In this document: positions 13,634-48,506 of the stretch, in pieces
How positions within the stretch are numbered: the stretch's first letter is position 1
Layout: each line of letters begins with the position of its first letter
Assembly (NCBI GenBank): GCA_015234045.1
Contig: JADFWU010000006.1
Coordinates: forward strand, 25,192-89,191
From: Magnetococcales bacterium
Lineage (GTDB): Bacteria; Pseudomonadota; Magnetococcia; Magnetococcales; JADFWU01
Length of the DNA stretch: 64,000 bases
Direction: 5' to 3'
Notes under the pieces: model-generated
Told to the model about the DNA's origin: nothing
Databases searched by the model: none
What the model saw: only the letters and a program-made list of their open reading frames with translations
Position numbers and translations under genes: made by a program

Positions 13634-13639
13634 CCACGT

Positions 13640-16825: not shown

Positions 16826-16837
16826 GACGCGCCCCTC

Positions 16838-32713: not shown

Positions 32714-32761
32714 GAGTCACGGAAAAAATTAATCATTCCAGTCGCGCAGGATATTGGTTCG
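32714..32761. mobile_element. one-ended MITE fragment
   Basis: gagtcacggaaaaaattaatcattccagtcgcgcaggatattggttcg matches the reverse complement of 7650-7697. Preceded by TTA. Confidence 0.6.
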
Positions 32762-32803
32762 CCTTCCGTGTTGATTCCAGCTTTCTCAAGGGGGAGAGAA
32801 GCG

Positions 32804-34588
32804 TTGGAAAACGCCATTCTACTTGTTGATGATGATAATAGCGTTCGTTCGGTATATGGTGCTTTTATCCAAAAGGCAGGCTTTCACGTGCATATGGCCG
32901 AAAGCTATACCGAAGCACTAAACATTATCAGTAGCGTCAATTTTGATTTAATTATCACAGATATCCATCTTGGTGATAACAACGGGCTCAATCTCGTCAA
33001 AGAAGTCCATGCCCGTGAGCTTGACACCTATATTCTGGTTATTACCGGATATCCCGACTTTCAAACCGTTCAAGAGGCACTGCGCTTTGGCGCGTTTGAT
33101 TATCTATCCAAGCCCATTCGACGTGAAGACCTGATCCTGGCCATCCATCGTGCCATGGATCATAAGGCCATGCGCGATGAACGCACGCGTTTGCGTCGTG
33201 ATCTTCAGGCCATCTTTCGTTCGGTAAAAGATGCCATCATCACTGTTGACACCCAGCTGAACATTTTAGCAGTCAACCAGGCTGCTGACCGACTTTGCCA
33301 GCTGAACCATCAACAAGTCAGCCAACCCATGACTACTGAAAACAACAACAACTGCATCCATCACTGCCGTGAAGCCGTTTTAAAAGTACTCAAAACGAGT
33401 AACACTGTTGAACTGACCCGTATCAGCTGTGAACATGCAGACGGCTCACCGTTGATGATCAATGTAACCGTCTCACCGCTTGTGGATGAATCAGATCACA
33501 CCATGGGTGCTGTTCTTGTCATACGAGATGAAACCCGAATTGCAGCGCTGGAAAGAGATCTTAACGCACGTCGCCAATTTCACCGAATTGTCGGTCAAAG
33601 CGCTACAATGCAGAGGATCTACGGTCTGATTGAGGATCTTAGCCGGGTTGAAAGCACGGTGTTAATCCATGGTGAGAGCGGCACAGGCAAAGAGTTGGTC
33701 GCCGAAGCACTCCACTATGAAAGCGCACGCAGAGACAATCCATTGGTTAAGATCAACTGCGCCGCATTGACCGATACACTGCTCGAAAGCGAACTTTTTG
33801 GCCATGTGCGCGGTGCATTTACCGGTGCCCATCAGGATAAATTGGGTCGCTTTGAGTTGGCAGACAAAGGCACAATTTTTTTAGATGAAATCGGTGATAT
33901 CTCGCCACAAATGCAAACACGACTGCTCAGAGTCCTTCAAGAGCGTGAGTTCGAACGGGTTGGCGACACCCGCACACGACAGGTCGATGTACGCGTGGTT
34001 GCCGCGACCAATGTTAATCTCAAAGAACGAGTAGAACAGAAGAAATTTCGGGAAGATCTCTACTATCGACTGAAAGTCGTGGTCATTCCGTTGCCACCTC
34101 TCAGACAACGCCGGGATGATATTCCACTACTGATCAATCATTTCATCAATCGATTCAACACCCTGTTCAACAAAGAGATCAATGGTGTCACTGAACAGGT
34201 ACTCAAGACGTTCATGAATAATAACTGGCCGGGCAATATTCGTGAGATTCAACATGTAATTGAACATGCCTTTGTGGTCTGCCATCAACCCGTTATTGAT
34301 ATGGATCACCTACCGCCAGAGTTTCGTGATAGCCCGATATTCCAACCCGTTCAGACAGCGCATAACCCGCTATCTACAACATATGATCAAGACGCAAAGT
34401 TACCAAACTCAACCGATCAACAAAGCGGTCCAGCACATCAACTGAGCGAAAAAGAGCAAATTGTCATTGCACTGAATCAAACCGGATGGGTGAAAGCACG
34501 GGCAGCGCGTTTATTGGGATTTAGCCGCAGCACCATGTATCGTAAAATGCGGTCCTATAATCTGGAAGATGCTCCAGAATCGTGGTAA
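32804..34588 (+). CDS. sigma54-dependent response regulator (REC-PAS-AAA+-Fis HTH, NtrC family)
   Basis: ILLVDDD receiver, GESGTGKE, GAFTGA, C-terminal HTH. TTG start 7 nt after GGGGGAGAG. The ORF stays open upstream to 32483. Confidence 0.85.
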   Translation: MENAILLVDDDNSVRSVYGAFIQKAGFHVHMAESYTEALNIISSVNFDLIITDIHLGDNNGLNLVKEVHARELDTYILVITGYPDFQTVQEALRFGAFDYLSKPIRREDLILAIHRAMDHKAMRDERTRLRRDLQAIFRSVKDAIITVDTQLNILAVNQAADRLCQLNHQQVSQPMTTENNNNCIHHCREAVLKVLKTSNTVELTRISCEHADGSPLMINVTVSPLVDESDHTMGAVLVIRDETRIAALERDLNARRQFHRIVGQSATMQRIYGLIEDLSRVESTVLIHGESGTGKELVAEALHYESARRDNPLVKINCAALTDTLLESELFGHVRGAFTGAHQDKLGRFELADKGTIFLDEIGDISPQMQTRLLRVLQEREFERVGDTRTRQVDVRVVAATNVNLKERVEQKKFREDLYYRLKVVVIPLPPLRQRRDDIPLLINHFINRFNTLFNKEINGVTEQVLKTFMNNNWPGNIREIQHVIEHAFVVCHQPVIDMDHLPPEFRDSPIFQPVQTAHNPLSTTYDQDAKLPNSTDQQSGPAHQLSEKEQIVIALNQTGWVKARAARLLGFSRSTMYRKMRSYNLEDAPESW

Positions 34589-34606: not shown

Positions 34607-36505
34607 TTATTTAGCGAATAAAATTTCATGAACACGTTGCGCCAATATTTCACGGGAAACCGGTTTTTGCAGATAGCCAACAAATCCCAACGCCTTCGCT
34701 TGATCAGCAGTTAACGCCTCGGAATAACCAGTACATACCAGCACCGGAAATACCGATACCAATCCCTTAACATGCGCTAGAAGATCTACACCACTCAGAC
34801 CAGGCATGGTCTGGTCAGTAATCATCAAATCCACCTCATCTGAATGACTGGTCAGATAGGTCAGAGCCTCCGTAGGATCAGTAAACCCTTTTACCGAATA
34901 TCCCAACCGCACCAATGTGGCAACAGTCATCCGCACCAATGCATCTTCATCATCAACAAACACAATTCGACCATGGCCCAGTGGCGCATGCGTTTGATCT
35001 GGTGTTGAATCCACCTCAACATCATGGGGTATTGCTGGAAAATATACCCGAAAGACGGTTCCGAAATCGGGCTTACTTTCAACAGTAATAACACCCTTGT
35101 GCGCCGCCACAATGCCATGCACCACCGACAAGCCCAATCCTGTTCCCTGACCTAACACCTTGGTAGTAAAAAAAGGATCAAAGATTCGTTCCTGAATTTC
35201 AGGCCCCATACCAACACCGTTATCCCGCACTGTTAGCATGACAAATTCTGAATCGTTCAACTCATACTGATCCAAGAAGTGCTTATCAGGGTGAACCATC
35301 TGTACAGACATCTCCAACACCCCGTTGCGCCCTTCAACCGAATGGGCAGCGTTGGTCATGAGATTGATCAATACCTGATGGATCTGGCTGGGATCAGCAT
35401 TAATCGGTCGCAGTTGATTCGCCACACGGGATTCAATGGCAACCGAAGAGGGCAATGTTGCCCGCATGAACTTCACCACCTCTTTTGCAATTGGTCCCAT
35501 ATTCATGGGCTGATACCGCTTTTCATCCTGACGACTAAAAGTCAGCAGCTGTGCGACCAGATCCCGCGCCCGCACACCAGAACGAAATATCTCTTCCAGA
35601 TAGCCCAATACCGGCTCTTCATCAACATAGTCTTGAGCCAGTTCGGAGTAACCCATAACCGCACCAAGGATGTTATTAAAATCATGGGCAATGCCACCAG
35701 CCAAAGTCCCAATAGCCTCCAACTTTTGCGACTGACGCAACATACGCTCCAGCTGGTTTTCTCGTGTCATATCCCGATATACCGCGACAAAATTGCTGAT
35801 CTCGCCCGTTGCATCACGAAGTGGCGAGATAATCGCATCCACTTCAAAAGTGGTGCCCATCTTGTGTCGATTTACAATACGTCCATGCCAACTTTCACCT
35901 CGCAACAGCGTTTGCCAAAGATCTTGATAGAAGAGCGCATTATGGTGATTACTCTTCAGAAACCGCGTTGTTTTCCCTTCTATCTCTTTAGCCGAAAAGC
36001 CACTCACATGTTCAAAGGCCGGGTTGGTGTATTGGATATGACCATTGGCATCCGTAATCAACACCATTTCATTGGCTTGCTCCACCACAGCTGCCAAACG
36101 ATCCCTTTCCCAAGCTACATCCTGTTGCTGTGTCTGTTTTCCTACCGCCTCTATCAGTGCAATTTCCAAACGATCCAGATTTGAGAATGGAATCACATCG
36201 ACAACACCGGCACGCATCAATGCAACCGCTTGCTGCGTCTCAATGTTATCTGAAATAACAAATACCGGTAGAACCAACTGTCTATTGGAGAACAATTCAA
36301 GCATCTGAAAAGGCTCAACATGAGCAATATCATATCCAAACACAACCGCATCGAACTGATGGGTAGCCAAACTGGCAACCAGGGTGTTTGTATCAATCAC
36401 TATTTTCCAGACAGGTTGGATGGTCCCGAATTCGTGCAGGTATAATGATTGACTCAGTGCCTTTTCAGGACCATCAACAACAAGAATCTGAATGGGTTTG
36501 ACCAT
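34607..36505 (-). CDS. hybrid sensor histidine kinase (N-terminal receiver-like domain, PAS, HisKA-HATPase, C-terminal REC)
   Basis: H-box GIAHDFNNIL, G-boxes, and a C-terminal IVFVDDED receiver. Confidence 0.85.
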   Translation of the reverse strand: MVKPIQILVVDGPEKALSQSLYLHEFGTIQPVWKIVIDTNTLVASLATHQFDAVVFGYDIAHVEPFQMLELFSNRQLVLPVFVISDNIETQQAVALMRAGVVDVIPFSNLDRLEIALIEAVGKQTQQQDVAWERDRLAAVVEQANEMVLITDANGHIQYTNPAFEHVSGFSAKEIEGKTTRFLKSNHHNALFYQDLWQTLLRGESWHGRIVNRHKMGTTFEVDAIISPLRDATGEISNFVAVYRDMTRENQLERMLRQSQKLEAIGTLAGGIAHDFNNILGAVMGYSELAQDYVDEEPVLGYLEEIFRSGVRARDLVAQLLTFSRQDEKRYQPMNMGPIAKEVVKFMRATLPSSVAIESRVANQLRPINADPSQIHQVLINLMTNAAHSVEGRNGVLEMSVQMVHPDKHFLDQYELNDSEFVMLTVRDNGVGMGPEIQERIFDPFFTTKVLGQGTGLGLSVVHGIVAAHKGVITVESKPDFGTVFRVYFPAIPHDVEVDSTPDQTHAPLGHGRIVFVDDEDALVRMTVATLVRLGYSVKGFTDPTEALTYLTSHSDEVDLMITDQTMPGLSGVDLLAHVKGLVSVFPVLVCTGYSEALTADQAKALGFVGYLQKPVSREILAQRVHEILFAK

Positions 36506-38540: not shown

Positions 38541-38634
38541 TGTCTATGCTCCGCAGTATTCATTGCTTTGTGTGGAAACCCCTTCTTTGCGTGGCCCATC
38601 AGATACTCTGTTCAGGTAATAATTGAATTTTCTA

Positions 38635-38670
38635 TTCAGATCTGGTCCAATTCAGATCTGGTCCAATTCA
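38635..38670 (+). repeat. 16-bp tandem repeat x2.25
   Basis: ttcagatctggtccaa ttcagatctggtccaa ttca. Confidence 0.8.
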
Positions 38671-39187: not shown

Positions 39188-39203
39188 TGGCACCCGATTT
39201 GCA
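39188..39203 (+). promoter_or_regulatory. sigma54 (-24/-12) promoter, near-consensus
   Basis: TGGCAC-ccgat-TTGCA. Confidence 0.6.
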
Positions 39204-39288
39204 ATTTCTCGGCTATCGCTGAACAGTCTGACGACTTGTTGACAGCGAACATGATGGTTTCGTGAATGTATATGGGAGTACCTTAAAT

Positions 39289-39432
39289 ATGAGTATGGAC
39301 GCTTGGATAATCCTCGGATCAGTACTGTTTGCTGTAGTGGTTGGTGGCGTATTGCGCAGTATCCTTTGGGAGATTGATGGCCAACGCAGCAATCAAGCAT
39401 TGGCTAACCATCTATTGGAAAAGAAGGTATAA
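39289..39432 (+). CDS. 47-aa single-TM peptide (below the ORF-track cutoff)
   Basis: MSMDAWIILGSVLFAVVVGGVLRSILWEIDGQRSNQALANHLLEKKV. GGGAG upstream. About 75 nt downstream of the predicted sigma54 TSS. Confidence 0.3.
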   Translation: MSMDAWIILGSVLFAVVVGGVLRSILWEIDGQRSNQALANHLLEKKV

Positions 39433-39746
39433 AATTGATTTCTCCGTAGCCCACTCAAATAAATTACAACAATAAATTGACAAATATGGAACCTATTTAC
39501 GAAAATGATTGTCAAATCTGGCTGAGAAGCTTATAAAACTGTATTGATGATTTACCAAGGGTCAGAGACATTATGGGGGCTTAGACCAAAAATCAGGCGA
39601 TTCGGTCTTGAGCGTTTCTCACCTTTAATCAATCACAGTTGTGTAGCGAATCTGATGATATCCATGAAAGACGCTCTTTTCTGGAGATCATTATTTCGTT
39701 TCATTCATCAGCCACTGAGCAATAACACACCACCCGGGGGAACGTC

Positions 39747-40076
39747 ATGGAGTGTAATCCTGAGCTATTATCAGCTTTTCTGGATGACGAATTGGACCCG
39801 GAAACCAATGCCAAACTGATTGAACACCTGCTTGAATGTGAAGAGTGCCAACAACTTCTGGCTAAATTAAGCCAAGCCCGTGTTGCTCTGTCAGATTCCC
39901 CGACTCTCTTTGAGTGCGAACCGATGGTCAACCAAATCATGGGCCCCATTACCAACCAGATTGTTTCCGACATTCCGCTGGACCCTTCTCTTGATGATCT
40001 TGATGACGATGAACTCGAAGCGCTGTCCATAAATCGTTCCTCTATCCTTTTGGAAAAGTCCACAGCTTGTATGTAG
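39747..40076 (+). CDS. zf-HC2 (anti-sigma-type zinc finger) protein, soluble and acidic
   Basis: LSAFLDDELD..IEHLLECEECQ (H-x3-C-x2-C). No TM segment and no adjacent sigma factor. Confidence 0.6.
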   Translation: MECNPELLSAFLDDELDPETNAKLIEHLLECEECQQLLAKLSQARVALSDSPTLFECEPMVNQIMGPITNQIVSDIPLDPSLDDLDDDELEALSINRSSILLEKSTACM

Positions 40077-40147
40077 TTCCATATAGTTCCGCTGTTTCTG
40101 ACCCTTCCTTATATTTCTGAGTCACTGTTGAACCATTAGGTGTTCCG

Positions 40148-41320
40148 ATGACAGATAAGCATCCAATCCTGGTTCTGACGGAGATGTTTCCGCCAATTCG
40201 AGGCGGCACTTCAACGTGGTTTGACCAAGTTTATCCACTTCTTGGTGAACGAGAAATCCATATTATAGCCCGCGCTGTTGAACAGAGTGGTAGTGTGGAC
40301 GCGCATCATGCCAACACCATTCACCGTATCAACATGGCGCGTATTCCCTGGTTGCGACCTGAATCACTGGCTCTCTATATCCGCATGATAGTCAAGGGCA
40401 TCGGAATATTATTCAAAAATGATTTCAAGGTGATACATGCTGGACGTGTACTGCCGGAAGGGTTGGTTGGTGTGGTATTGGCGCGACTGTTTAACAAGCC
40501 GCTGGTGATCTATGCCCATGGTGAAGAGATTACTGTATGGCGGCAGCATGCCAACAAATTCAAAGCGCTGGTCAAAACTTTTCAAAAGGCTGATTGCATC
40601 ATTGCCAACAGTAATTTCACCCGCGACCTTTTACTCAATGTAGTGGGTGTGGATGCCTCTCGTATTGAATTAATCTCACCGGGTGTCAATCCCGAAGAGT
40701 TTCGCCCTGGCCTACCCTGTGATGATCTGCGAGACAGCTTGGGCCTCACCAAACAGAAAAAACTAATCCTCAGCATCGGTCGCCTAACCCGCCGTAAGGG
40801 ATTCGATCGGGTTATTGAGTCTTTACCCTTTCTGATTGAAAAAGGGGTCGATCCACACTATGCCGTTATCGGACCCGGCGAAGATCGGGACTATCTGTTA
40901 GCACTGGCCAAAGAGAAAGGCGTTGCCGACCGTTTTCATCTTTTGGGTAACGTGCCACAGGCGGACATGCCGCGCTGGATGAACGCGACAGATCTATTCG
41001 TGATGGCGAATCGAAAAACATCCGATCTGGATGCAGAGGGGTTTGGCATCGTCTTCATCGAAGCCGCTGCATGTGGAAAACCGGCCATTGCCGGTGATCA
41101 TGGCGGCACAGGTGATGCGGTTATTCACAATGAAACCGGTTTGAGAATCAACGGAAATGATCTCAATACCGTTCAACAAAGCCTGCTCTCTCTTCTCACC
41201 GATGATGCACTAATCCAACGCCTGAGCAATAACGGCCTCCAACGCGCCCGCGCTGAATTGACATGGTCTGAGATTGCTAAAAAAACAGCACTACTAAACC
41301 AAAAACTCGATCTGAGTTAA
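40148..41320 (+). CDS. GT4-family glycosyltransferase
   Basis: GT-B fold pattern with the E-x7-E region (EGFGIVFIEAAACGKP). Confidence 0.85.
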   Translation: MTDKHPILVLTEMFPPIRGGTSTWFDQVYPLLGEREIHIIARAVEQSGSVDAHHANTIHRINMARIPWLRPESLALYIRMIVKGIGILFKNDFKVIHAGRVLPEGLVGVVLARLFNKPLVIYAHGEEITVWRQHANKFKALVKTFQKADCIIANSNFTRDLLLNVVGVDASRIELISPGVNPEEFRPGLPCDDLRDSLGLTKQKKLILSIGRLTRRKGFDRVIESLPFLIEKGVDPHYAVIGPGEDRDYLLALAKEKGVADRFHLLGNVPQADMPRWMNATDLFVMANRKTSDLDAEGFGIVFIEAAACGKPAIAGDHGGTGDAVIHNETGLRINGNDLNTVQQSLLSLLTDDALIQRLSNNGLQRARAELTWSEIAKKTALLNQKLDLS

Positions 41321-41541
41321 TCCCGTCCAACATGTTTGAACATCTGGAAAATACTCTCACTGAACAACCACCGCCAAAGCGGGTGGGTTCGTATTGCGGA
41401 CTGAAAGTCCAGATAGCGGCTAAAGCCGGTAATTTGAACCTTGCAGCATGGATAATCACTCTCGCATGTTGCCCAAGTGCTTCAGGATGGATAAGCTATA
41501 CGCTATTTCCATGATATTCTTTTTAATGCCACGGACGACCG

Positions 41542-42999
41542 ATGACCTCAACCATCCTGGACTCAACGGAATCTGACCGTTCGGATACACCACTTTGTGT
41601 GGATCTGGATGGTACGTTGATCCGTACTGATCTTTTGGTGGAAGGCGCTTTTCGACTTCTGCGAAAGAATCTGCTCTATCTTTTTCTATTGCCCTTTTGG
41701 CTGCTCAAAGGCAAAGCCAATCTGAAAGAGCAGATTGCCAACCGCGTCATACCGGAACCAACACGACTGCCCTTTCACCCCGACTTTCTGGCCTTTCTCA
41801 AACAAGAGCATCAGCGTGGGCGTAAATTGATTCTGGCAACCGCTTCGGATCGCCGCTATGGGAATGCGATTGCCAATCATCTAGGTATATTCAATGAAGT
41901 CTTTGGTACGGAAAAAGGTATCAATCTGGCTGGCAACGGTAAGAAACGACTGCTTGTAGAACGGTTCGGTGATGGTGGATTTGCCTATGCCGGTGATGCG
42001 CGTGTTGATCATGCCATCTGGCAACATGCCAGTGAGATCATTGTGGTCAACCCAAGACCCGGCGTTCTCAAGATGCTTAAACAGGCCGGACACTCAATCC
42101 ACCAACTATTCGATGAAAAACCCGGCAGTTTAAAACAGTGGATCAAAGCATTACGGCTACACCAATGGATGAAAAACATCCTTCTATTTGCACCGCTTGT
42201 TGCTGGACATCGTTTTCTGAATCCAGACGATCTACTCAATACCACCATCGGTTTTATCGCGTTCAGTTTTTGCGCCTCCAGCTGTTATCTGCTCAACGAC
42301 CTCACCGACCTGGATGCAGACCGCTGCCATCCGCGCAAGAAGCACCGCCCGTTAGCAGCCGGTATGATTCCCATGGCAAAAGGAGTTGCACTGATTCCTA
42401 TTCTGGTGATCATGGGATTTACGCTCTCATTGTTACTGCCTCGTGAATTTACTGAGGTTCTGTTTACCTATTATATTTTGACACTGCTGTACTCCTTTCA
42501 CCTCAAACGTATTGTGCTACTTGATGTCTTGATCCTGGCGATGTTGTTTACTCTACGTATCAATGCCGGTGGCGCGATTCTTGGTGTAGAACTAACTTTC
42601 TGGCTTCAGGCTTTCTCGATGTTTCTGTTTCTCAGTCTGGCATTGGTGAAACGCTACACCGAGCTACTGACCATGCAGAAACTGGAACAAAACAACACTC
42701 AACGGCGTGGCTATCAGCTACCGGACATCTCTATTTTATTGAGTTTAGGCAGTGCAAGCGGCTTGATGGCCGTTCTGGTTATGGCACTCTATATCAACAG
42801 CGCCCGGATTCTGGATCTCTATCAATACCCTAAAATGATCTGGCTACTCTGCCCATTAGCCGTCTACTGGATATCTCATGTCTGGTTGGTGGCTGGTCGG
42901 GATGAAATGCATGATGATCCAGTGCTGTTTGCCATTAAAGACCCGATCAGTCTTGGCATCGGCGCAACAGGCCTGCTTATTCTCTTTATGGCGACCTAA
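41542..42999 (+). CDS. HAD-phosphatase-like domain fused to a UbiA-family polyprenyl-phosphate phosphoribosyltransferase
   Basis: DLDGT (HAD motif I) at the N-terminus. NDLTDLDADRCHPRKKHRPLAAG as in decaprenyl-phosphate PRPP transferases. Confidence 0.85.
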   Translation: MTSTILDSTESDRSDTPLCVDLDGTLIRTDLLVEGAFRLLRKNLLYLFLLPFWLLKGKANLKEQIANRVIPEPTRLPFHPDFLAFLKQEHQRGRKLILATASDRRYGNAIANHLGIFNEVFGTEKGINLAGNGKKRLLVERFGDGGFAYAGDARVDHAIWQHASEIIVVNPRPGVLKMLKQAGHSIHQLFDEKPGSLKQWIKALRLHQWMKNILLFAPLVAGHRFLNPDDLLNTTIGFIAFSFCASSCYLLNDLTDLDADRCHPRKKHRPLAAGMIPMAKGVALIPILVIMGFTLSLLLPREFTEVLFTYYILTLLYSFHLKRIVLLDVLILAMLFTLRINAGGAILGVELTFWLQAFSMFLFLSLALVKRYTELLTMQKLEQNNTQRRGYQLPDISILLSLGSASGLMAVLVMALYINSARILDLYQYPKMIWLLCPLAVYWISHVWLVAGRDEMHDDPVLFAIKDPISLGIGATGLLILFMAT

Positions 43000-43002
43000 T
43001 CC

Positions 43003-44328
43003 ATGACACAGCGCTATCAATCCTGGGGACGCTACCCAAAAGCCTCACACCAGATTCAGACCATTCAATGGCCTGAGGATCTACCCAATGACCTCACTAA
43101 ACAGATCCATGGTGCCCTACCGTTTGGCAATGGACGCAGCTATGGTGATTGCTGTTTGAATGATGGCGGTCTGTTGCTGGATGGCCGTTTTAGAAATCGT
43201 TTACTGGCGTTTGATGCACATAGTGGCATTCTGCGCTGTGAAGCAGGTGTTCTGCTGGCCGATATTTTGGAATTAATGACCCCGCGAGGCTGGTTTCCAG
43301 CGGTGACACCAGGCACAAAGCTTCTGACTGTTGGTGGTGCCATTGCCAACGATGTCCACGGTAAGAATCATCACCGAACCGGCAGCTTCGGCGATCATGT
43401 TCACCGTATTGGCCTATTGCGAAGCGATGGCCAACAGCTGATCTGCTCACCCGATGAAAATACCGACCTGTTTCGCGCCACTATCGGTGGCATTGGACTG
43501 ACCGGCTATATTCTCTGGGCAGAGTTCAGCCTACGCCCTATCTCCAATCCCTATTTCGATATGGAGACAATCCGCTATGGCAATGTTGAGGACTTTTTTC
43601 AACTCTCTTCAGAGTCGGACCAGGATTATGAATACACTCTGGCCTGGTTGGATTGCCAAGGGCGCGGCAAAAACCTGGGGCGCGGTCTATTCATGCGCGG
43701 CAACCATGCGCCATTCATTCCACAAGCGCAGTGGCCGAAACACGCCTCTCGCCAGCTCAACATGCCGATTGATCCACCCTTTACGCTTATCAATGGCCTG
43801 ACGCTCAAAGCATTCAACACCCTCTACTATTATAAGCAAATCCGGCGGTCTCAGTGTGCATGCGTTCATTACGACAGCTTCTTCTATCCGCTGGATGCCA
43901 TTGACAACTGGAACCGGATCTATGGTCCGAAAGGTTTTTTCCAATACCAGTGCGTACTGCCTCAGGAATCGGGACAGGATGGCATTAAAGAGATTCTCAA
44001 GGGAATTGCCCGCTCTGGTCAGGGATCATTCCTGGGAGTTCTCAAAGTGTTTGGTGACCGTCAATCACCGGGATTACTCAGTTTTCCTCGGCCTGGTTCT
44101 ACGCTGGCATTGGATTTTCCCAACCGTGGCAAAAAGACCCTGACACTGTTGGAACGTTTTGACACCATTGTCCGTGAAGCAGGCGGTGCGGTTTACATTG
44201 CCAAAGATGCCCGAATGAGTCCCAGCTCATTTCGTCATTTTTATCCTCAATGGCAAACCTTCAAATCATTTGTCGATCCGGGTTTCTCCTCCAGCTTCTG
44301 GAGACGGGTTACAGAGGAGTCATCATGA
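43003..44328 (+). CDS. DprE1-like FAD-dependent polyprenyl-phosphoribose 2'-oxidase
   Basis: GNGRSYGD, TVGGAIANDVHGKNHH, NWNRIYGPKGFFQYQ. Collinear with M. tuberculosis DprE1 (from memory). Confidence 0.9.
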   Translation: MTQRYQSWGRYPKASHQIQTIQWPEDLPNDLTKQIHGALPFGNGRSYGDCCLNDGGLLLDGRFRNRLLAFDAHSGILRCEAGVLLADILELMTPRGWFPAVTPGTKLLTVGGAIANDVHGKNHHRTGSFGDHVHRIGLLRSDGQQLICSPDENTDLFRATIGGIGLTGYILWAEFSLRPISNPYFDMETIRYGNVEDFFQLSSESDQDYEYTLAWLDCQGRGKNLGRGLFMRGNHAPFIPQAQWPKHASRQLNMPIDPPFTLINGLTLKAFNTLYYYKQIRRSQCACVHYDSFFYPLDAIDNWNRIYGPKGFFQYQCVLPQESGQDGIKEILKGIARSGQGSFLGVLKVFGDRQSPGLLSFPRPGSTLALDFPNRGKKTLTLLERFDTIVREAGGAVYIAKDARMSPSSFRHFYPQWQTFKSFVDPGFSSSFWRRVTEESS

Positions 44329-45065
44329 GAAAGATTCTGATTATCGGTGCCACATCCGCCATTGCTCAGGCGGTGGCCCATCGGTATGCACAACAAGGTC
44401 ACGCCCTTTTTCTGACTGGCCGTGATCCTGAACGTGTTGCCACCATTGCAGCTGATTTGCGGGTGCGCGGTGCGGTTCAGGTGGAGAGTGCAACGCTGGA
44501 CGCAAATCAGATTGAGACCCACCAAACGGTATTGGATCACGCCATCACTGCTATGGGTTCCATTGATACTGTTTTGATTGCCCATGGTGTACTTAACGAC
44601 CAACAAACCTGTCAAGCATCGGTTGAAGACACTTTGGACGCTTTTCAAACCAATGCGTTAAGTGCCATTGCCCTACTCACCTTGTTGGCCAATTACATGG
44701 AACACAACGCCATTAAGGGCACTTTAGCTGTGATCTCGTCCGTGGCTGGTGATCGCGGTCGGCAAAGCAATTATGTCTATGGTGCGGCTAAGGCGGCTAA
44801 GAGCACTTTTCTTGCTGGACTGCGCAATCGTCTTCATTCAGCGGGTATCCATGTACTCACCATTAAACCAGGCTTTGTTGATACGCCCATGACGGCCCAT
44901 CTTAAAAAGGGCCTGTTGTGGGCTCAGCCGGATGATGTGGCTGCGGGTATTGTCAAATCCATTGAGAAACGTCGCGATTGTGTCTATCTGCCTGGCTTCT
45001 GGTGGTTGATCATGACAATCATCCGCGCCATACCTGAATCCCTTTTCAAACGCCTTACACTCTGA
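44325..45065 (+). CDS. DprE2-like short-chain dehydrogenase (2'-keto reductase)
   Basis: ATGA overlap with the previous gene. IIGATSAIA, YVYGAAKA, C-terminal IPESLFKRL. Confidence 0.85.
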   Translation: MRKILIIGATSAIAQAVAHRYAQQGHALFLTGRDPERVATIAADLRVRGAVQVESATLDANQIETHQTVLDHAITAMGSIDTVLIAHGVLNDQQTCQASVEDTLDAFQTNALSAIALLTLLANYMEHNAIKGTLAVISSVAGDRGRQSNYVYGAAKAAKSTFLAGLRNRLHSAGIHVLTIKPGFVDTPMTAHLKKGLLWAQPDDVAAGIVKSIEKRRDCVYLPGFWWLIMTIIRAIPESLFKRLTL

Positions 45066-45497
45066 TGCCTGTTTCATACTTTTAGATAATTATTACCGAA
45101 AACTTTCAACAAAACGGGAAATCATATAAAGTATTTACTGTATATATACACACAGAAAATATTATTTTTTTGTGTGTTATCATAGTAATGCAAACACATT
45201 ATTGATCATACTGCACCCATCAAGAGCCTCTACTTTCCTGTAGAAACAGGTTCATTCTGCCTACCGAACCTCTGAATTCAACCCTATTTCCATTTCTATC
45301 TGTTTTCTAGAATATCCAATTAGCATATTGATTTTAAAATAAAATATAAAATTCAAACACCTCCCTTTAAATTTATCATCCCATAGGATATCTTTAGTAG
45401 TGTACATTTAGCTTGAAGTAATTGTTGCATACCTCGAGTTATATGTGCTACATATCATGAAAGTAATAAAGACCATTCCTCAGAGGAAAGCATTAAG

Positions 45498-46136
45498 ATG
45501 AAATCAAATGAGCATCTGGCAAAACGTGTTAAAGAGGCCCGCAGTAGAGCAGGACTGAAACAGGTTGAACTGGCCCAAGAAGCGGGCATCTCTTCTGCCA
45601 CTGTCCAGAAACTGGAAAGCGGAGAGTCCGGCGGTTCTATCAGGACACTAAACGGTATTGCCAATGCCTGCGGCGTAGATGCGGCTTGGCTATCATCGGG
45701 CAGCGAATCCAATGCACCTTACACATCACCAGAGAACGCCTCTGTGCTGCGTATTGCTGTAACAAATGTCGAAAACATCGTAAATTGGCAGGATTGGGCT
45801 GACTGGACAATGCCGCCCACAACCACAGAGTGGATTCGCATCTCTGTTCCGAAAGATGCTGGCAGCGTGGTGGCACTAACCATCAATAACGATATCATGT
45901 CACCAGAGTTGATTGAAGGCGATAAAGCAATTGTTGCGTTAGGGAAAAAACCTAAGCATGGTCAAATCGTTGTGGCCTACAAGACTGGCAGTAAACGGGC
46001 TTTCTTACGTCAAATCATGTTGGACTCAGCGACCACATTCCTCAAACCCACAAACAATCGTTATCCAATAAAACCTATTAATTCAGAATATAAAGTTATT
46101 GGTGTTGTCGTGTCGAAATATCAAGAATACAACTAA
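45498..46136 (+). CDS. CI/LexA-like repressor (XRE HTH + S24 peptidase-like domain)
   Basis: LKQVELAQEAGISSATVQKLESG, and a C-terminal S24-like beta domain (IMSPELIEGD). Confidence 0.8.
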   Translation: MKSNEHLAKRVKEARSRAGLKQVELAQEAGISSATVQKLESGESGGSIRTLNGIANACGVDAAWLSSGSESNAPYTSPENASVLRIAVTNVENIVNWQDWADWTMPPTTTEWIRISVPKDAGSVVALTINNDIMSPELIEGDKAIVALGKKPKHGQIVVAYKTGSKRAFLRQIMLDSATTFLKPTNNRYPIKPINSEYKVIGVVVSKYQEYN

Positions 46137-46453
46137 GAGCTGTAAAATACGGAAAACGATTCGCCTGCGACCTGACATAATAAAATCCAACTACAGTCAG
46201 AGCAGGAGTCTTGGTATACTCAACTGAATCAATATACAACTGGTGAATAAGGTTTCATCGCGAAACCTCTCACTGACAAAACCACCATTATGCACAATTG
46301 ACGCACAATCCTAAGATTTACCGTGCGATTTTCGCAATAAGACAGCAACTGATTGTGAACTATCCCCATCTGATTTATCCTGAATGCTATTTATACGTCC
46401 CGAATCACCAATGAGCAGACCATCTCGGTCTGTTTTCCTGAAGGGGTCTTGTC

Positions 46454-48328
46454 GTGCAAACAGCCTTCCAACGCATCATGAATATTCTGGTCATATCGGC
46501 ACTTATCCTCTTCTCACTGACTTATCTGGTCAAAGCGGCGTATGTGGGTGATGGTTTTTTTGTGGATGACACCTACTATTATATGGTTGCCGCCATGAAC
46601 TTTGTGGAACATGGCTTTCTAAGTCTGGACTCAGTCACACACACCAACGGCTATCACCCGGTCTGGACCGGTGTCTGCATTGCCGTAGCCTGGGTGGTCA
46701 AACTGTTTGGCGGCACTCATAACCACATGGCCATGAGCATTGCCATGGTTGAGGCCATTTTCTATGTCTTGACGTTGGCTTCATTGGGGTTCTTTTACAG
46801 TAAACTGAGCGATGAAAAACCCAACCGAGCGCTGACCTTCTTTACACTCGCCGCCATATTATCCTACCCGTTGGTCAACTGGATGTTTCGATTGGGCATG
46901 GAGTCCACCCTGACGGCGCTGATCATGGTCTGGCTGGTCTATTTTCTGATCCGTGAGCGATGGTTTGCACTGTCGCTGATTATGGCCCTGCTGGTTATGA
47001 CACGGCTGGACACACTGGTATTTCTGATCTTTCCAACCTTGATGCTGCTCTTGATCCGGCCTGACTTCTCTCTGTTACGACCTATTGTTACCGGTTTTCC
47101 AACGGCTTTAGTCACCGCTGGGTATCTCTATTACAATCATCTCACCTTTGGTCACATCAAACCCATAAATGGTGTGCTACGCTCCTCGTTTCCCATACCC
47201 ACACCGCACTGGACCTTTCCACTTGATCCGGTAGCCAATGTTCATGATATCTACGGTGCCATCAAACTATTTTTAATGCCCAACACGCTATTATTGGTGG
47301 TGTTAGCCGTTGTTGGCATTGGTCTGATGTTACTTGGACCAGTACGTGAACGTCTACGCAGCATTGATCGTCTGTTCCTGATTACCGGCACCTTGTTGGT
47401 ACTCAATTTAATCCTGTTTCAAAAGTGGTCCAAAGGCATTGAACAGTGGTATTTTGCAGCGCCTCTAATACTGCTCATTCTTGGCTATGGTGGCATGTTC
47501 CGCGCCCTGCTTAATATGGTTAATCCAACTTGGTTGCGGGCTCTACTGGTCACTGTACCACTCTCTGGACTGGCCTATGTCGCCTTTGGTATGAGCCTGA
47601 ATACCACAGGCAATGCAGAAATCTCGTCAATAGTCTCACTTACTCTGGCAGGACTGATTCCACTTGTTGCCATTGTGTCCCTTCTGATTAAAGTAGAACC
47701 GATCAAACCGATCATTATGGCCATGGGATTTTCCGCCCTGCTGGTCTCTGCCACTGTGCACGCATTGACCCTTTCTCAGGATCACCGAACTGACGCTGCA
47801 CTATTGGATAAGTTCACACAATGCGTCACCGACAATGTTGCACCAGATGCCTTTGTTGCTGGAACTGACATCGGCGGAACAGCGTTCAAATCTCAGCGCC
47901 ATTTCGTTAATCTTGACGGTGTGGTGAACAATTTTGTCTATCAGGAGTATTTGAGAGACAAACGTCTTGCTGATTATCTGACCATGAAGAACGTCCAATA
48001 CATCGCTGTCACACTGTCGGAAAATCCGACCTTCAGCCCATATCGTGACATTGAAAACATGTATAAATCACGCATCGCGCCCGAAGCTGTACGCAATGAA
48101 CCCTATGAGTCTGTACCATTTTATGTCTACTCATACATGTACAATAACTTCAGCGATGAAATTCCACTGTTCCAACGCAATGAGGTGTGTCGTTCGGAGG
48201 TTTATATGGGTGGGAACAATCCATCAGTCGATATGCTGTTCCGCATTGAGGCATCGGTCTCTGACACACCTAAACCGGCCACCGACAGTACCCATGAACC
48301 CGCTAACAACACTGAGCCAACAGGCTGA
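46454..48328 (+). CDS. large polytopic membrane protein, GT-C-like glycosyltransferase candidate
   Basis: 624 aa, more than 12 TM segments plus a soluble C-domain. Acidic motif FFVDDTYYY in the first loop. GTG start. Confidence 0.6.
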   Translation: MQTAFQRIMNILVISALILFSLTYLVKAAYVGDGFFVDDTYYYMVAAMNFVEHGFLSLDSVTHTNGYHPVWTGVCIAVAWVVKLFGGTHNHMAMSIAMVEAIFYVLTLASLGFFYSKLSDEKPNRALTFFTLAAILSYPLVNWMFRLGMESTLTALIMVWLVYFLIRERWFALSLIMALLVMTRLDTLVFLIFPTLMLLLIRPDFSLLRPIVTGFPTALVTAGYLYYNHLTFGHIKPINGVLRSSFPIPTPHWTFPLDPVANVHDIYGAIKLFLMPNTLLLVVLAVVGIGLMLLGPVRERLRSIDRLFLITGTLLVLNLILFQKWSKGIEQWYFAAPLILLILGYGGMFRALLNMVNPTWLRALLVTVPLSGLAYVAFGMSLNTTGNAEISSIVSLTLAGLIPLVAIVSLLIKVEPIKPIIMAMGFSALLVSATVHALTLSQDHRTDAALLDKFTQCVTDNVAPDAFVAGTDIGGTAFKSQRHFVNLDGVVNNFVYQEYLRDKRLADYLTMKNVQYIAVTLSENPTFSPYRDIENMYKSRIAPEAVRNEPYESVPFYVYSYMYNNFSDEIPLFQRNEVCRSEVYMGGNNPSVDMLFRIEASVSDTPKPATDSTHEPANNTEPTG

Positions 48329-48441
48329 GTGGAAGCCCTGGTGATGTTTTTGCGCCGCTTTTGATATGTGAAGCAGATCATCGGGGCAAAAACATCGCCA
48401 GGGCTGGAACGGCTGCCTGTTCAAACTTTAGACGAATTCAC
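48325..48441 (+). repeat. structured intergenic repeat family B, copy 3
   Basis: Collinear with 12165-12281. Starts on the stop codon of the GT-C-like gene. Confidence 0.75.
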
Positions 48442-48444
48442 GAT

Positions 48445-48486
48445 AAAAAAAGGCCCTGAATGGTCATAATTCAGGGCCTTTTTTTA
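48445..48486. terminator. bidirectional intrinsic terminator
   Basis: A7-ggccctgaat N7 attcagggcc-T8. Confidence 0.75.
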
Positions 48487-48506
48487 TGGATTGAATTCAA
48501 TACCGA

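What the first reader, a model, noticed from the sequence alone, without database searches (positions are those of the whole stretch)
39188..48328. Complete polyprenyl-phospho-D-arabinofuranose donor pathway plus a GT-C-like transferase behind a sigma54 promoter, acceptor unknown
Three adjacent, partly overlapping genes reproduce the actinobacterial DPA route. The first (41542-42999) is a UbiA-type polyprenyl-P:PRPP phosphoribosyltransferase with motif NDLTDLDADR..HPRKKHRPLAAG. It is fused to an N-terminal HAD phosphatase-like domain (DLDGT) that could perform the 5'-dephosphorylation step. The second (43003-44328) is a DprE1-like FAD oxidase, collinear with M. tuberculosis DprE1 as I recall it. 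The position matching the benzothiazinone-binding Cys (..NICVDFP) reads ..TLALDFP, i.e. Ala. The third (44325-45065) is a DprE2-like SDR. A 624-aa polytopic protein with an acidic first-loop motif (46454-48328) is a plausible GT-C arabinosyltransferase that would use this lipid donor, and a GT4 gene sits upstream. In Gram-negative bacteria I know this pathway only from sporadic cases (P. aeruginosa pilin arabinosylation, Azorhizobium Nod-factor arabinosylation). No pilin or nod gene lies nearby, so the glycosylated target is open. The cluster is preceded by a near-consensus sigma54 promoter, a 47-aa TM peptide ORF and an orphan zf-HC2 protein. It is also interrupted by a CI/LexA-like repressor gene.
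Basis: partly seen in the sequence, partly recalled or inferred. Interest (0 to 1): 0.7.

Follow-up and report, generated by a model that had tools for sequence, protein, structure and literature searches.

The report
Lipid-linked arabinofuranose pathway plus GT-C transferase
This stretch of a Magnetococcales genome encodes the enzymes that make a lipid-carried D-arabinofuranose sugar, plus a membrane enzyme that probably attaches it to an unknown cell-envelope target; it is a credible but fairly ordinary new example of a system type described in 2024.

Summary

- **Donor pathway.** The HAD-UbiA fusion, the FAD oxidase and the SDR each have as their best solved-structure relative the mycobacterial DPPR synthase, DprE1 and DprE2 (E 7e-27, 5e-74, 3e-33).
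- **Transferase.** The 624-aa protein matches no Pfam, NCBIfam or PDB sequence. Its AlphaFold model (pLDDT 85) matches only GT-C glycosyltransferases, with ArnT first.
- **Family.** It belongs to a very large unnamed GT-C family (17,873 representatives at E<=1e-3).
- **Linkage.** In six betaproteobacterial loci its closest relatives sit directly beside the same three genes. One distant family member does too.

The reading is therefore a polyprenyl-P-D-Araf pathway feeding a periplasmic GT-C arabinofuranosyltransferase.

The novelty premise is outdated. HAD-UbiA fusions are abundant (7,622 clusters at E<=1e-30). Kelly et al. (PNAS 2024, PMC11127046) already described such "three-component" pentofuranose systems, including DprE1/E2-assisted Araf variants.

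What differs here:
- the GT-C family is uncharacterised;
- no flippase gene lies in the window;
- the module stands among housekeeping genes, not in a polysaccharide cluster.

The acceptor stays unknown, and control by the sigma-54 promoter is unproven.

The parts
39188..39203 (+). sigma-54 type -24/-12 promoter-like element TGGCACCCGATTTGCA
   Evidence: It is the only exact match to TGGCAC-N5-TTGCW in the 64-kb window. It is intergenic and lies 86 bp upstream of the 47-aa ORF. Its function is not shown.
39289..39432 (+). 47-aa ORF with one hydrophobic helix, preceded by GGGAG
   Evidence: Translation, sequence. No family match. Whether it is a real gene is unproven.
39747..40076 (+). 109-aa zf-HC2 (anti-sigma-like) protein with no transmembrane segment and no adjacent ECF sigma gene
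   Evidence: PF13490, E 8.7e-10. It is not found beside the module in related loci.
40148..41320 (+). GT4-family Leloir glycosyltransferase (cytoplasmic, GT-B)
   Evidence: PF00534, E 8.7e-35, and PF13439, E 1.6e-18. Only generic NCBIfam hits, all far below cut-off. Not conserved next to the module in relatives.
41542..42999 (+). Fusion of an N-terminal HAD phosphatase (about residues 9-190, DLDGT) with a C-terminal UbiA-type polyprenyl-phosphate phosphoribosyltransferase (about residues 197-485)
   Evidence: NF006088 scores 632 bits against a cut-off of 351. Mtb DPPRS 8J8J matches at E 6.7e-27 with conserved NDxxDxxxD and HPxKxxRPxAAG. Same architecture as the experimentally characterised C. 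youngae ORF15 (PMC11127046).
43003..44328 (+). DprE1-like FAD-dependent polyprenyl-P-ribose 2'-oxidase
   Evidence: M. smegmatis and M. tuberculosis DprE1 structures match at E 4.6e-74 to 8e-73 over residues 2-435. The next family (cytokinin oxidases) is at 4e-11. NF053785 scores 363 bits. Cys to Ala at the benzothiazinone site. The YxAKDxR lysine is kept.
44325..45065 (+). DprE2-like SDR, the 2'-keto reductase. Its ATG overlaps the DprE1 stop codon.
   Evidence: Mtb DprE2 (21gq_C) matches at E 3e-33 over the full length. The next SDR is at 4.5e-17. NF005489 scores 334 bits against a cut-off of 267. The overlap is seen.
45498..46136 (+). XRE-HTH plus Peptidase_S24-fold regulator, flanked by AT-rich spacers. 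The catalytic Ser and Lys are apparently replaced.
   Evidence: PF00717, E 4e-12, and PF01381, E 2e-10. The 434 repressor HTH matches at E 1.7e-7. Alignment. The upstream spacer is 30% GC. Absent from related loci.
46454..48328 (+). 624-aa GT-C-fold glycosyltransferase and candidate arabinofuranosyltransferase. It has the periplasmic loop-1 motif DDTYYY (38-43), TNGYHPVW (64-71), and a C-terminal alpha/beta domain with NLDGVVN (486-492).
   Evidence: AF2 model with pLDDT 85.1 and pTM 0.85. The top 17 Foldseek PDB hits are all GT-C or GT-C-fold proteins, with ArnT at E 5e-7. Family of 17,873 representatives. Conserved residues. Adjacent to the HAD-UbiA/DprE1/DprE2 genes in six related loci and in L087.
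48443..48487 (.). Perfect 19-nt inverted repeat flanked by A and T runs. It is a bidirectional terminator-like hairpin that closes the cluster against the convergent hemerythrin gene.
   Evidence: inverted repeat I7. A second 24-nt inverted repeat lies at 48334-48405 (I3).

Best explanation
The locus is a self-contained module for periplasmic D-arabinofuranosylation of an envelope acceptor.

1. **Ribose transfer.** On the cytoplasmic face, the UbiA-type domain of the 485-aa fusion transfers ribose-5-phosphate from PRPP to a polyprenyl phosphate. The carrier is presumably undecaprenyl phosphate.
2. **Dephosphorylation.** The N-terminal HAD domain of the same protein removes the 5-phosphate.
3. 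**Oxidation.** The DprE1-like flavoenzyme oxidises the ribose 2'-OH to a ketone.
4. **Reduction.** The translationally coupled DprE2-like SDR reduces the ketone with inverted configuration. The product is polyprenyl-P-beta-D-arabinofuranose.
5. **Flipping.** A flippase not encoded in this window moves the lipid-linked sugar to the outer face of the inner membrane.
6. **Transfer.** The 624-aa GT-C enzyme transfers Araf to the acceptor. The invariant Asp39 in its first periplasmic loop is the likely catalytic residue.

**Shown by homology:** the identity of the four donor-pathway activities, and the GT-C fold.

**Shown by comparative genomics:** the functional link between the GT-C clade and the pathway.

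**Inferred only:** the lipid carrier, the flipping step, Araf (rather than another pentose) as the sugar finally transferred, and the acceptor.

The module stands alone among housekeeping genes both here and in relatives, and its best structural match is ArnT. The acceptor is therefore more likely a constitutive envelope molecule (LPS lipid A/core, another glycolipid or a protein) than a product of an adjacent polysaccharide cluster.
For: - **Best solved relatives.** DPPRS at E 6.7e-27, DprE1 at E 4.6e-74, DprE2 at E 3e-33. Each is 13 or more orders of magnitude ahead of the next family.
- **Curated models.** The fused-family model NF006088 and the SDR model NF005489 score above their cut-offs.
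- **Catalytic motifs kept.** NDxxDxxxD, DxDGT, and the Lys of YxAKD.
- **Operon-like spacing.** A 3-nt gap and an ATGA overlap.
- **Experimental precedent.** C. youngae ORF15 is a HAD-PPPRS fusion that makes polyprenyl-P-Ribf, and DprE1/E2 homologues accompany Araf-containing glycans (PMC11127046).
- **GT-C fold.** pLDDT 85. The top 17 PDB hits are all GT-C-fold proteins, led by ArnT with TM 0.53-0.57. In addition, 8 of 40 family members hit Pfam PMT_2 and 13 of 40 hit NF047440 'putative glycosyltransferase'.
- **Neighbourhood.** Of 80 genomic loci of the family, the 9 closest (30-34% identity) form a clade with the window protein at bootstrap 0.995.
  - Six of the nine have HAD-UbiA plus DprE1 plus DprE2 directly adjacent. 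Two of these have a rearranged gene order.
  - One of the nine has a standalone UbiA plus a PAP2 phosphatase.
  - The other 71 loci have no DprE1.
- **Independent case.** A remote family member (hhalign probability 98.5%) lies directly upstream of a PF03706 + HAD-UbiA + DprE1 + DprE2 operon in a gammaproteobacterial MAG.
Against: - No biochemical data exist for any member of this GT-C family.
- The GT-C gene is separated from the DprE2 gene by a regulator gene and two AT-rich spacers (433 and 317 bp). Co-transcription is therefore not evident.
- Two of its nine nearest relatives (L003, L004) sit beside GT2 genes rather than a PPPRS. Donor choice varies within the clade.
- The six trio-linked relatives are all betaproteobacterial and may represent few independent events.
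- No flippase candidate (GtrA, SMR/ArnEF-like, MATE, PF03706) is in the 64-kb window.
- The DprE1, DprE2 and DPPRS matches fall below NCBI's actinobacterial equivalog cut-offs.
- The organism is an uncultured MAG, so no glycan chemistry is available.
Confidence: 0.72

Rival explanations
1. The donor pathway is real, but the 624-aa GT-C is an unrelated neighbour. It would use a different lipid-linked sugar (for example a GT2-made polyprenyl-P-hexose). The Araf donor would be consumed by a transferase encoded elsewhere in the genome.
For: - The GT-C gene is set apart by the HTH-S24 gene and by AT-rich spacers that probably hold their own promoters.
- Close relatives L003 and L004 are adjacent to GT2 genes and have no PPPRS.
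- Most of the wider family has no PPPRS nearby.
- In other MAGs the same trio pairs with a different GT-C, a PMT_2-type protein.
Against: - Six of the nine nearest relatives have the trio immediately adjacent, and this persists after gene-order rearrangement (L008, L010).
- The window protein groups with these six, although at only 0.65 bootstrap.
- A distant family member shows the same linkage independently.
- No other GT-C candidate exists in the window.
Confidence: 0.15
2. The module delivers ribofuranose or another pentofuranose rather than arabinofuranose. The oxidase/reductase pair would have a different stereochemical outcome, or would act on another substrate.
For: - The DprE1- and DprE2-like proteins score below the NCBIfam equivalog cut-offs (363 against 500, and 202 against 250).
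- The GT136 enzyme of C. youngae accepts both Ribf and Xylf donors, so GT-C donor promiscuity is known (PMC11127046).
- Relatives L009 and L090 carry a PPPRS without epimerase genes.
Against: - Both proteins align over their full length with DprE1 and DprE2, including the DprE2 C-terminal tail.
- Xylf systems use a GalE-like epimerase instead.
- In every sequenced producer of Araf side chains surveyed by Kelly et al., DprE1/E2 homologues accompany the system.
Confidence: 0.08
3. The cluster is a pilin- or Nod-factor-type arabinosylation system like the two Gram-negative cases the first reader recalled.
For: Only the shared donor pathway.
Against: - No prepilin leader motif occurs in any frame of the window.
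- No pilus or nod genes are among the annotated ORFs.
- The GT-C lacks the TPR C-terminal domain that defines TfpW.
- The related cassettes also lie among housekeeping genes.
Confidence: 0.03

Closest known systems
Three-component pentofuranose side-chain systems (Kelly, Duong, Nothof, Lowary & Whitfield, PNAS 2024, PMC11127046). The prototype is Citrobacter youngae O1 ORF15/ORF14/ORF12. Araf variants with DprE1/E2 occur in Stenotrophomonas and Rathayibacter.
   Same: - An N-terminal HAD (PRP) domain fused to a UbiA-type polyprenyl-P phosphoribosyltransferase.
- DprE1/DprE2 homologues as auxiliary epimerase for Araf.
- A GT-C enzyme annotated as hypothetical and recognisable only by its fold.
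- ArnT as the nearest solved structure.
   Different: - No MATE/ArnEF-like flippase gene in the locus or the window.
- The GT-C has an alpha/beta C-terminal domain rather than a beta-rich CBM. It belongs to a separate, unnamed family. Its relation to GT136 could not be tested here.
- The module is not embedded in an O-antigen or EPS cluster but stands among housekeeping genes.
- It carries extra GT4, zf-HC2 and HTH-S24 genes.
Mycobacterial decaprenyl-phospho-arabinose (DPA) pathway: Rv3806c, Rv3807c, DprE1, DprE2, with Emb/Aft GT-C arabinosyltransferases
   Same: - The same chemistry is inferred for donor synthesis.
- The best solved-structure relatives of all three donor enzymes are the mycobacterial ones.
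- The transferase is GT-C. AftB is among the structural hits at E 4e-4.
   Different: - The phosphatase is a fused HAD domain rather than the PAP2-type Rv3807c.
- The carrier is probably C55, not C50 (inferred).
- DprE1 has Ala in place of the benzothiazinone-reactive Cys.
- There is no Pfam match to the Emb or AftA families.
- There is a single transferase rather than a polymerising set.
Pseudomonas aeruginosa Pa5196/PA7 pilin arabinosylation (PsPA7_6245-6251 plus TfpW)
   Same: - A Gram-negative Araf donor pathway with DPPRS, DprE1 and DprE2 homologues.
- A GT-C-type transferase with a DDx motif in periplasmic loop 1.
- No flippase firmly identified (bioRxiv 10.1101/2020.04.19.049825).
   Different: - TfpW has a C-terminal TPR domain and lies next to pilA. 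Neither is the case here.
- The P. aeruginosa phosphatase is a separate protein.
ArnT (GT83), the undecaprenyl-P-L-Ara4N:lipid A transferase
   Same: It is the best structural match (E 5e-7 to 1e-6, TM 0.47-0.57). It likewise belongs to a stand-alone modification module that uses a polyprenyl-monophosphate-pentose donor.
   Different: - About 14% sequence identity.
- No PMT_2 or ArnT Pfam hit for this protein.
- A different donor pathway (PRPP-derived, not UDP-derived).
- No evidence for lipid A as the acceptor.

Membership tests
PRP(HAD)-PPPRS fusion / UbiA-type polyprenyl-phosphate phosphoribosyltransferase | UbiA-superfamily membrane domain with the NDxxDxxxD motif and a second conserved cytoplasmic-loop motif | tested here: met
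   PF01040, E 1.3e-22. NDLTDLDADRCHPRKKHRPLAAG aligns with NDVRDVEADREHPTKRFRPIAAG of 8J8J at E 6.7e-27.
PRP(HAD)-PPPRS fusion / UbiA-type polyprenyl-phosphate phosphoribosyltransferase | N-terminal HAD domain with the nucleophile motif DxDxT | tested here: met
   PF12710, E 2.8e-8, over residues 21-124. VDLDGT lies at residues 20-25. The full-length fused model NF006088 scores 632 bits against a cut-off of 351.
PRP(HAD)-PPPRS fusion / UbiA-type polyprenyl-phosphate phosphoribosyltransferase | Scores above NCBI's curated cut-off for decaprenyl-phosphate phosphoribosyltransferase | tested here: not met
   NF008977 scores 158 bits against a cut-off of 234. NF008978 scores 157 against 207. These models are built for the unfused actinobacterial enzyme.
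PRP(HAD)-PPPRS fusion / UbiA-type polyprenyl-phosphate phosphoribosyltransferase | PRPP-dependent formation of polyprenyl-P-ribose | not testable with these tools
   This needs a membrane assay as in PMC11127046.
DprE1 (polyprenyl-P-ribose 2'-oxidase) | Full-length collinear similarity to solved DprE1, including the FAD-binding domain | tested here: met
   4AUT matches at E 4.6e-74 over query residues 2-435. Mtb DprE1 matches at E 8e-73. The next family is at 4e-11. PF01565, E 2.5e-16.
DprE1 (polyprenyl-P-ribose 2'-oxidase) | Catalytic lysine in the C-terminal YxAKD motif. The role of this lysine (Lys418 in M. tuberculosis DprE1) is from my own knowledge. | tested here: met
   YIAKDAR aligns with YTAKDSR.
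DprE1 (polyprenyl-P-ribose 2'-oxidase) | NCBIfam equivalog cut-off (500 bits) | tested here: not met
   NF053785 scores 363.5 bits, E 2e-108.
DprE1 (polyprenyl-P-ribose 2'-oxidase) | Benzothiazinone-reactive cysteine. This marks drug sensitivity and is not required for activity. | tested here: not met
   Ala in TLALDFP aligns with Cys in NVCVDFP.
DprE2 (2'-keto reductase, SDR) | SDR fold, with DprE2 as the closest solved relative over the full length | tested here: met
   21gq_C matches at E 3e-33 over residues 3-245. The next SDR is at 4.5e-17. YxxxK (YGAAK) is present.
DprE2 (2'-keto reductase, SDR) | NCBIfam equivalog cut-off (250 bits) | tested here: not met
   NF053786 scores 202 bits. 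The related model NF005489 scores 334 bits, above its cut-off of 267.
GT-C fold glycosyltransferases | Polytopic membrane domain with an acidic motif in the first extracytoplasmic loop after TM1 | tested here: met
   TM1 spans about residues 2-30, followed by DDTYYY at 38-43. D39 is invariant in 40 sequences. The loop at 27-69 has 5 acidic residues against 1 basic.
GT-C fold glycosyltransferases | Structural similarity to solved GT-C enzymes | tested here: met
   The top 17 Foldseek hits are all GT-C-fold proteins: ArnT, STT3, ALG12, DPY19, ALG9, PglB, AftB, PIG-U and PIG-M. Foldseek probability is 0.99-1.00 and the best TM-score is 0.57.
GT-C fold glycosyltransferases | Match to a curated GT-C sequence family (Pfam PMT_2, Arabinose_trans, AftA_N and others) | tested here: not met
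   The protein itself has no Pfam or NCBIfam hit at E<=0.01. Of 40 relatives, 8 hit PMT_2 and 13 hit NF047440.
GT136 (C. youngae ORF12 family) | Sequence similarity to ORF12 | not testable with these tools
The paper's alignment is an image.
GT136 (C. youngae ORF12 family) | C-terminal beta-rich carbohydrate-binding module | tested here: not met
   The C-terminal domain modelled alone (pLDDT 90.5) is alpha/beta. Its only high-probability hits are weak ones to the C-terminal domains of AglB, DPY19 and STT3, with no E<=1e-3.
TfpW (pilin arabinosyltransferase) | C-terminal TPR domain and a gene adjacent to pilA | tested here: not met
   The model has no TPR. No prepilin motif occurs in the window.
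Three-component pentofuranose glycosylation system | Co-located lipid-linked-sugar flippase (MATE, SMR or GtrA type) | tested here: not met
   No such domain occurs among the window ORFs. Related gammaproteobacterial loci carry a PF03706 gene instead.
Three-component pentofuranose glycosylation system | PPPRS and GT-C genes co-located, with DprE1/E2 for Araf | tested here: met
   The arrangement is conserved in L001, L002, L005, L006, L008, L010, L081-L083 and L087.

The most novel reading that the evidence does not exclude
The 624-aa protein would give the first functional handle on a very large, unnamed GT-C family (about 18,000 clusters at 50% identity, spread across many phyla). One of its clades would be a dedicated D-arabinofuranosyltransferase. 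It would work in a minimal, flippase-less, stand-alone four-gene cassette. Like the arn system, this cassette would decorate a constitutive envelope molecule (lipid A/core, another glycolipid or proteins) rather than a polysaccharide side chain. That would extend Araf envelope modification to Magnetococcales and to soil Betaproteobacteria.
Probability: 0.25. Interest if true: 0.55.

Novelty: new member of a known kind. Interest (0 to 1): 0.36.

Why it matters
D-arabinofuranose is best known from the mycobacterial cell wall, where its lipid-linked donor pathway is a drug target. Since 2024 the same logic is known to operate widely in other bacteria as a way to decorate surface glycans.

This locus adds three things:
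- a lineage (Magnetococcales) in which it has not been described;
- a transferase from a huge uncharacterised GT-C family, whose clade-level linkage to the donor genes gives a concrete, testable donor assignment;
- a possible acceptor that is a core envelope component, because the cassette stands alone without a polysaccharide cluster or a flippase gene.

It does not change the concept. Its value lies in annotation and in guiding enzyme discovery.

Tried and rejected
- **Direct sequence identification of the 624-aa protein.** Pfam, NCBIfam and PDB phmmer found nothing. A PDB profile search gave only marginal DPY19 and PIG-M hits.
- **Word-indexed protein search.** It gave only 3-9 relatives. 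The exhaustive profile search was needed to reveal the family.
- **Flippase search.** No GtrA, SMR, MATE, PF03706 or Wzx domain was found in any window ORF. A scan for small multi-TM ORFs found only a V-ATPase c subunit, a Na/Ca exchanger and an unidentified 3-TM protein beside a cytochrome gene.
- **Pilin or Nod target.** Rejected. There is no prepilin motif and there are no nod or pil genes.
- **Anti-phage defence island.** Rejected. PADLOC gave only generic HTH and HNH domain hits.
- **Regulatory RNA in the long spacers.** Rfam found nothing at gathering thresholds.
- **Sigma-70 promoter and terminator scans.** Not above shuffled expectation, so uninformative.
- **Foreign insertion of the HTH-S24 gene.** Not supported by composition. 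The gene body is 47-48% GC like its neighbours, and only the spacers are AT-rich.
- **C-terminal domain as a clue to the acceptor.** Modelled with high confidence, but fold matches were weak and pointed only to generic GT-C C-terminal domains.
- **Second membrane protein of the Usitatibacter cassette.** It occurs only in the Usitatibacter loci (L006, L081-L083) and not in the window.
- **The window's own contig record.** An exact-sequence look-up found no record.

Full report
**Source and layout.** The window comes from an uncultured Magnetococcales bacterium. The 624-aa product is 100% identical to the NCBI protein HQL54_03590. All ORFs named in the finding exist at the stated coordinates.

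On the + strand the order is:
- a sigma-54-type element at 39188-39203;
- a 47-aa single-helix ORF at 39289-39432;
- a zf-HC2 protein at 39747-40076;
- a GT4 glycosyltransferase at 40148-41320;
- a HAD-UbiA fusion at 41542-42999;
- a DprE1-like flavoprotein at 43003-44328;
- a DprE2-like SDR at 44325-45065;
- an HTH-S24 regulator at 45498-46136;
- the 624-aa membrane protein at 46454-48328.

The UbiA, DprE1 and DprE2 genes are packed as an operon, with a 3-nt gap and an ATGA overlap. A perfect 19-nt hairpin flanked by A and T runs at 48443-48487 closes the cluster against a convergent hemerythrin gene.

**The donor pathway.** Three independent lines agree for each enzyme.

*HAD-UbiA fusion.*
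- It matches the full-length curated model NF006088 at 632 bits, against a cut-off of 351.
- Its membrane half has M. tuberculosis DPPR synthase 8J8J as best solved relative, at E 6.7e-27. The NDxxDxxxD and HPxKxxRPxAAG motifs are conserved.
- Its N-terminal half carries the HAD nucleophile motif DLDGT.

*Oxidase.*
- It aligns over residues 2-435 with M. smegmatis and M. tuberculosis DprE1 at E 4.6e-74 to 8e-73. The next family, cytokinin oxidases, is at 4e-11.
- The YxAKD lysine is kept.

*SDR.*
- It aligns over its full length with M. tuberculosis DprE2 at E 3e-33. The next SDR is at 4.5e-17.

The matches to NCBI's DPPRS, DprE1 and DprE2 equivalog models are the top hits but fall below the curated cut-offs, which are tuned to actinobacteria. 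I therefore treat these proteins as homologues that very probably do the same chemistry, not as certified equivalogs.

The HAD domain's proposed job, removing the 5-phosphate, now has a direct precedent. In C. youngae ORF15, which has the same HAD-PPPRS architecture, mutating the HAD nucleophile causes the 5-phosphorylated lipid intermediate to accumulate (PMC11127046).

**The 624-aa protein.** It has no hit in Pfam, NCBIfam or PDB sequences. The word-indexed search found only a 30%-identical Usitatibacter protein and two weak hits.

An exhaustive profile search changed the picture:
- 17,873 representative proteins match at E<=1e-3;
- 8,429 match at E<=1e-10;
- 2,522 match at E<=1e-30;
- the 150 best are mostly about 500-600 aa long.

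So this is a very large, unnamed family. A 40-sequence alignment shows the following invariant or near-invariant positions:
- D39, Y42 and Y43, in the motif DDxYYY just after TM1;
- D59;
- T64-N65-G66-x-H68-P69-x-W71;
- G148-x-E150;
- R184-x-D186;
- a C-terminal N486-L-D-G-x-x-N492 motif.

Of the 40 members, 8 hit Pfam PMT_2 (best 8e-13) and 13 hit NCBIfam NF047440, 'LA_3751/LA_3752 family putative glycosyltransferase'.

The AlphaFold2 model built on this alignment is confident, with mean pLDDT 85.1 and pTM 0.85. Only an insertion at residues 372-414 is poorly modelled.

Its top 17 Foldseek matches in the PDB are all GT-C-fold proteins:
- ArnT first, at E 5e-7 and 1e-6 with TM 0.47-0.57;
- then STT3, ALG12, DPY19, ALG9, PglB, AftB, PIG-U and PIG-M.

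After rank 17 the Foldseek match probability collapses.

The C-terminal 170 residues were modelled alone (pLDDT 90.5). They form an alpha/beta domain with only weak matches. The most probable are the C-terminal globular domains of AglB, DPY19 and STT3. There is no carbohydrate-binding module and no TPR.

The GT-C reading is therefore well supported. The acceptor is not revealed.

**Does this GT-C use the Araf donor?** I fetched 80 genomic loci encoding family members. I then searched them with the window's proteins.
- Nine loci encode proteins 30-34% identical to the window protein. All others are 25% or less.
- In an NJ tree these nine plus the window form a clade with bootstrap 0.995.
- The window protein is sister to six betaproteobacterial genes at bootstrap 0.65.
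- All six (L001, L002, L005, L006, L008, L010; Burkholderiales, Casimicrobiaceae, Usitatibacter and others) have the trio directly next to the GT-C gene.
  - In two of them DprE1 and DprE2 are inverted relative to the others, so the linkage survived rearrangement.
  - In L005 the contig ends within the DprE1 gene, so only HAD-UbiA and a partial DprE1 are seen there.
- Called genes on three Usitatibacter contigs confirm the order HAD-UbiA, FAD_binding_4, adh_short, GT-C. Housekeeping genes lie on both sides.
- Of the other three clade members, L009 (Nitrospirae) has a standalone UbiA right after the GT-C and a DAGK-PAP2 phosphatase upstream. That amounts to a ribose version without an epimerase.
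- L003 and L004 sit beside GT2 genes.
- None of the 71 more distant loci has a DprE1 neighbour.

There is one independent case. I started from the closest HAD-UbiA relatives. In one gammaproteobacterial MAG (L087), a 479-aa protein lies directly upstream of a PF03706 + HAD-UbiA + DprE1 + DprE2 operon. It is a remote member of the same GT-C family, at hhalign probability 98.5% and E 2.8e-15.

Taken together this is good, though not overwhelming, evidence that the clade containing the window protein uses the polyprenyl-P-Araf made next door. The six betaproteobacterial cases are related to one another and should not be counted as six independent events.

**What is missing or uncertain.**
- **Flippase.** No flippase candidate is in the 64-kb window.
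  - In related gammaproteobacterial loci a PF03706 (MprF-flippase-like) gene precedes the trio.
  - In C. youngae the candidate is an ArnEF-like protein.
  - In mycobacteria and P. aeruginosa it is a GtrA-like protein, which is dispensable in P. aeruginosa.
  - The absence here is therefore a difference, not a refutation.
- **Co-transcription.** The GT-C gene is separated from the DprE2 gene by the regulator gene and by AT-rich spacers of 433 and 317 bp. The first spacer is 30% GC. Co-transcription is not evident.
- **Accessory genes.** The GT4, zf-HC2 and HTH-S24 genes are not found with the module in relatives. They are probably lineage-specific accessories.
- **Sigma-54 element.** It is a perfect consensus and unique in the window. 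A sigma-54 enhancer-binding protein (REC-PAS-AAA-HTH_8) is encoded 4.6 kb upstream, next to a hybrid kinase. But the element sits about 950 bp and two small ORFs upstream of the GT4 gene, and nothing shows read-through. Generic promoter and terminator scans were at background level.

**Comparison with what is known.** That premise is outdated.
- The HAD-UbiA fusion had 7,622 hits (protein clusters at 90% identity) with E<=1e-30 among the 8,000 candidates scored. The named sources are mostly gammaproteobacterial MAGs such as Competibacteraceae, Thiodiazotropha and Acidiferrobacterales.
- Kelly et al. (PNAS 2024, PMC11127046) characterised 'three-component' systems: a PRP-PPPRS, a flippase and a GT-C that founds family GT136.
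  - They showed that auxiliary epimerases diversify the sugar, and that DprE1/E2 homologues accompany Araf-containing glycans.

The present locus fits that description. It differs in four respects:
- its GT-C belongs to another, uncharacterised family with a different C-terminal domain;
- it has no flippase gene;
- it stands alone among housekeeping genes (ABC-F, an HNH protein, purB, hemerythrin, feoB, minCD) rather than in a polysaccharide cluster;
- it carries extra regulatory genes.

It is not a TfpW system. There is no TPR domain, no pilA and no prepilin motif. It matches no Emb or AftA sequence family.

**Verdict.**
- I put the best explanation at about 0.72. It reads as a polyprenyl-P-D-Araf pathway feeding a periplasmic GT-C arabinofuranosyltransferase with an unknown, probably constitutive, envelope acceptor.
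- The donor-pathway part alone would rate higher.
- The main rival, at about 0.15, is that the GT-C is an unrelated neighbour using another donor.
- Novelty is modest: a new member of a known kind.
- The useful by-product is a testable donor assignment for one clade of a very large unnamed GT-C family.

Noticed in passing
It has Ile where the catalytic Ser sits (NNDIMS against G-x-S-M). It has Leu where the catalytic Lys sits (AFLRQI against TVKRL/TFKKL). It is probably a non-cleaving pseudo-peptidase repressor rather than an SOS-responsive one.
   Followed up: partly
window 45135-45154: An SOS-box-like sequence, TACTGTATATATACACACAG (CTGT-N8-ACAC), lies in the 30% GC spacer about 345 bp upstream of the HTH-S24 gene. 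It could be an operator for that regulator or a chance match in AT-rich DNA.
   Followed up: no
L086 7027-8004, L087 6987-7979, L089 6027-7004: In three gammaproteobacterial MAG loci, a PF03706 gene (LPG_synthase_TM, like the MprF flippase domain) lies immediately upstream of the HAD-UbiA/DprE1/DprE2 operon. The three proteins are 58-62% identical to one another. This is a plausible, so far unassigned, flippase for the lipid-linked pentose. No such gene is in this window.
   Followed up: partly
L009 5495-6193, 7412-9037 and 9038-9919: In a Nitrospirae MAG, a close relative of the GT-C is followed by a standalone 293-aa UbiA. A DAGK-PAP2 fusion lies upstream, with a DUF362 gene between it and the GT-C. 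No DprE1 or DprE2 is present. This looks like a ribofuranose version of the module, with a PAP2 phosphatase (as in mycobacterial Rv3807c) in place of the HAD domain.
   Followed up: partly
L081 8792-10435; L006 11601-13208 and 13283-14878: Usitatibacter cassettes carry one or two extra membrane proteins of about 547 aa after the GT-C. These have no Pfam hit and a weak GT-C-like 'LDD' N-terminal motif (hhalign probability 39%). They may be additional transferases. They are absent from the window.
   Followed up: partly
window 32384-34588 (+) and 34607-36505 (-): A sigma-54 enhancer-binding protein (REC-PAS-AAA+-HTH_8) is preceded by a one-mismatch sigma-54 motif at 32384-32399. Next to it lies a convergent PAS hybrid histidine kinase. 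They are a candidate regulator pair for the exact sigma-54 element at 39188, but no link has been shown.
   Followed up: no
window 38634-38665: An exact tandem duplication of 16 nt (ATTCAGATCTGGTCCA, two copies) lies in the spacer between the ABC-F gene and the HNH-domain gene.
   Followed up: no
window 48334-48405 and 48443-48487: Two hairpins lie between the convergent GT-C and hemerythrin genes. One has 24-nt arms that are 92% complementary. The other has perfect 19-nt arms with flanking A and T runs, typical of a bidirectional intrinsic terminator.
   Followed up: partly
window 12278-19682 (-): A V/A-type ATPase operon is present: A and B subunits, D, I and the c-ring subunit at 16838-17287. 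This is unusual enough in Proteobacteria to be worth a look.
   Followed up: no
window 114-701 (-), 21069-21905 (+), 25864-27687 (+): There is a 195-aa ORF with a phage-integrase domain near the window start, an Mrr-type restriction endonuclease, and a RecQ helicase. Local GC swings between 43% and 52% across 12-28 kb. This may be mobile or island DNA, unrelated to the finding.
   Followed up: no
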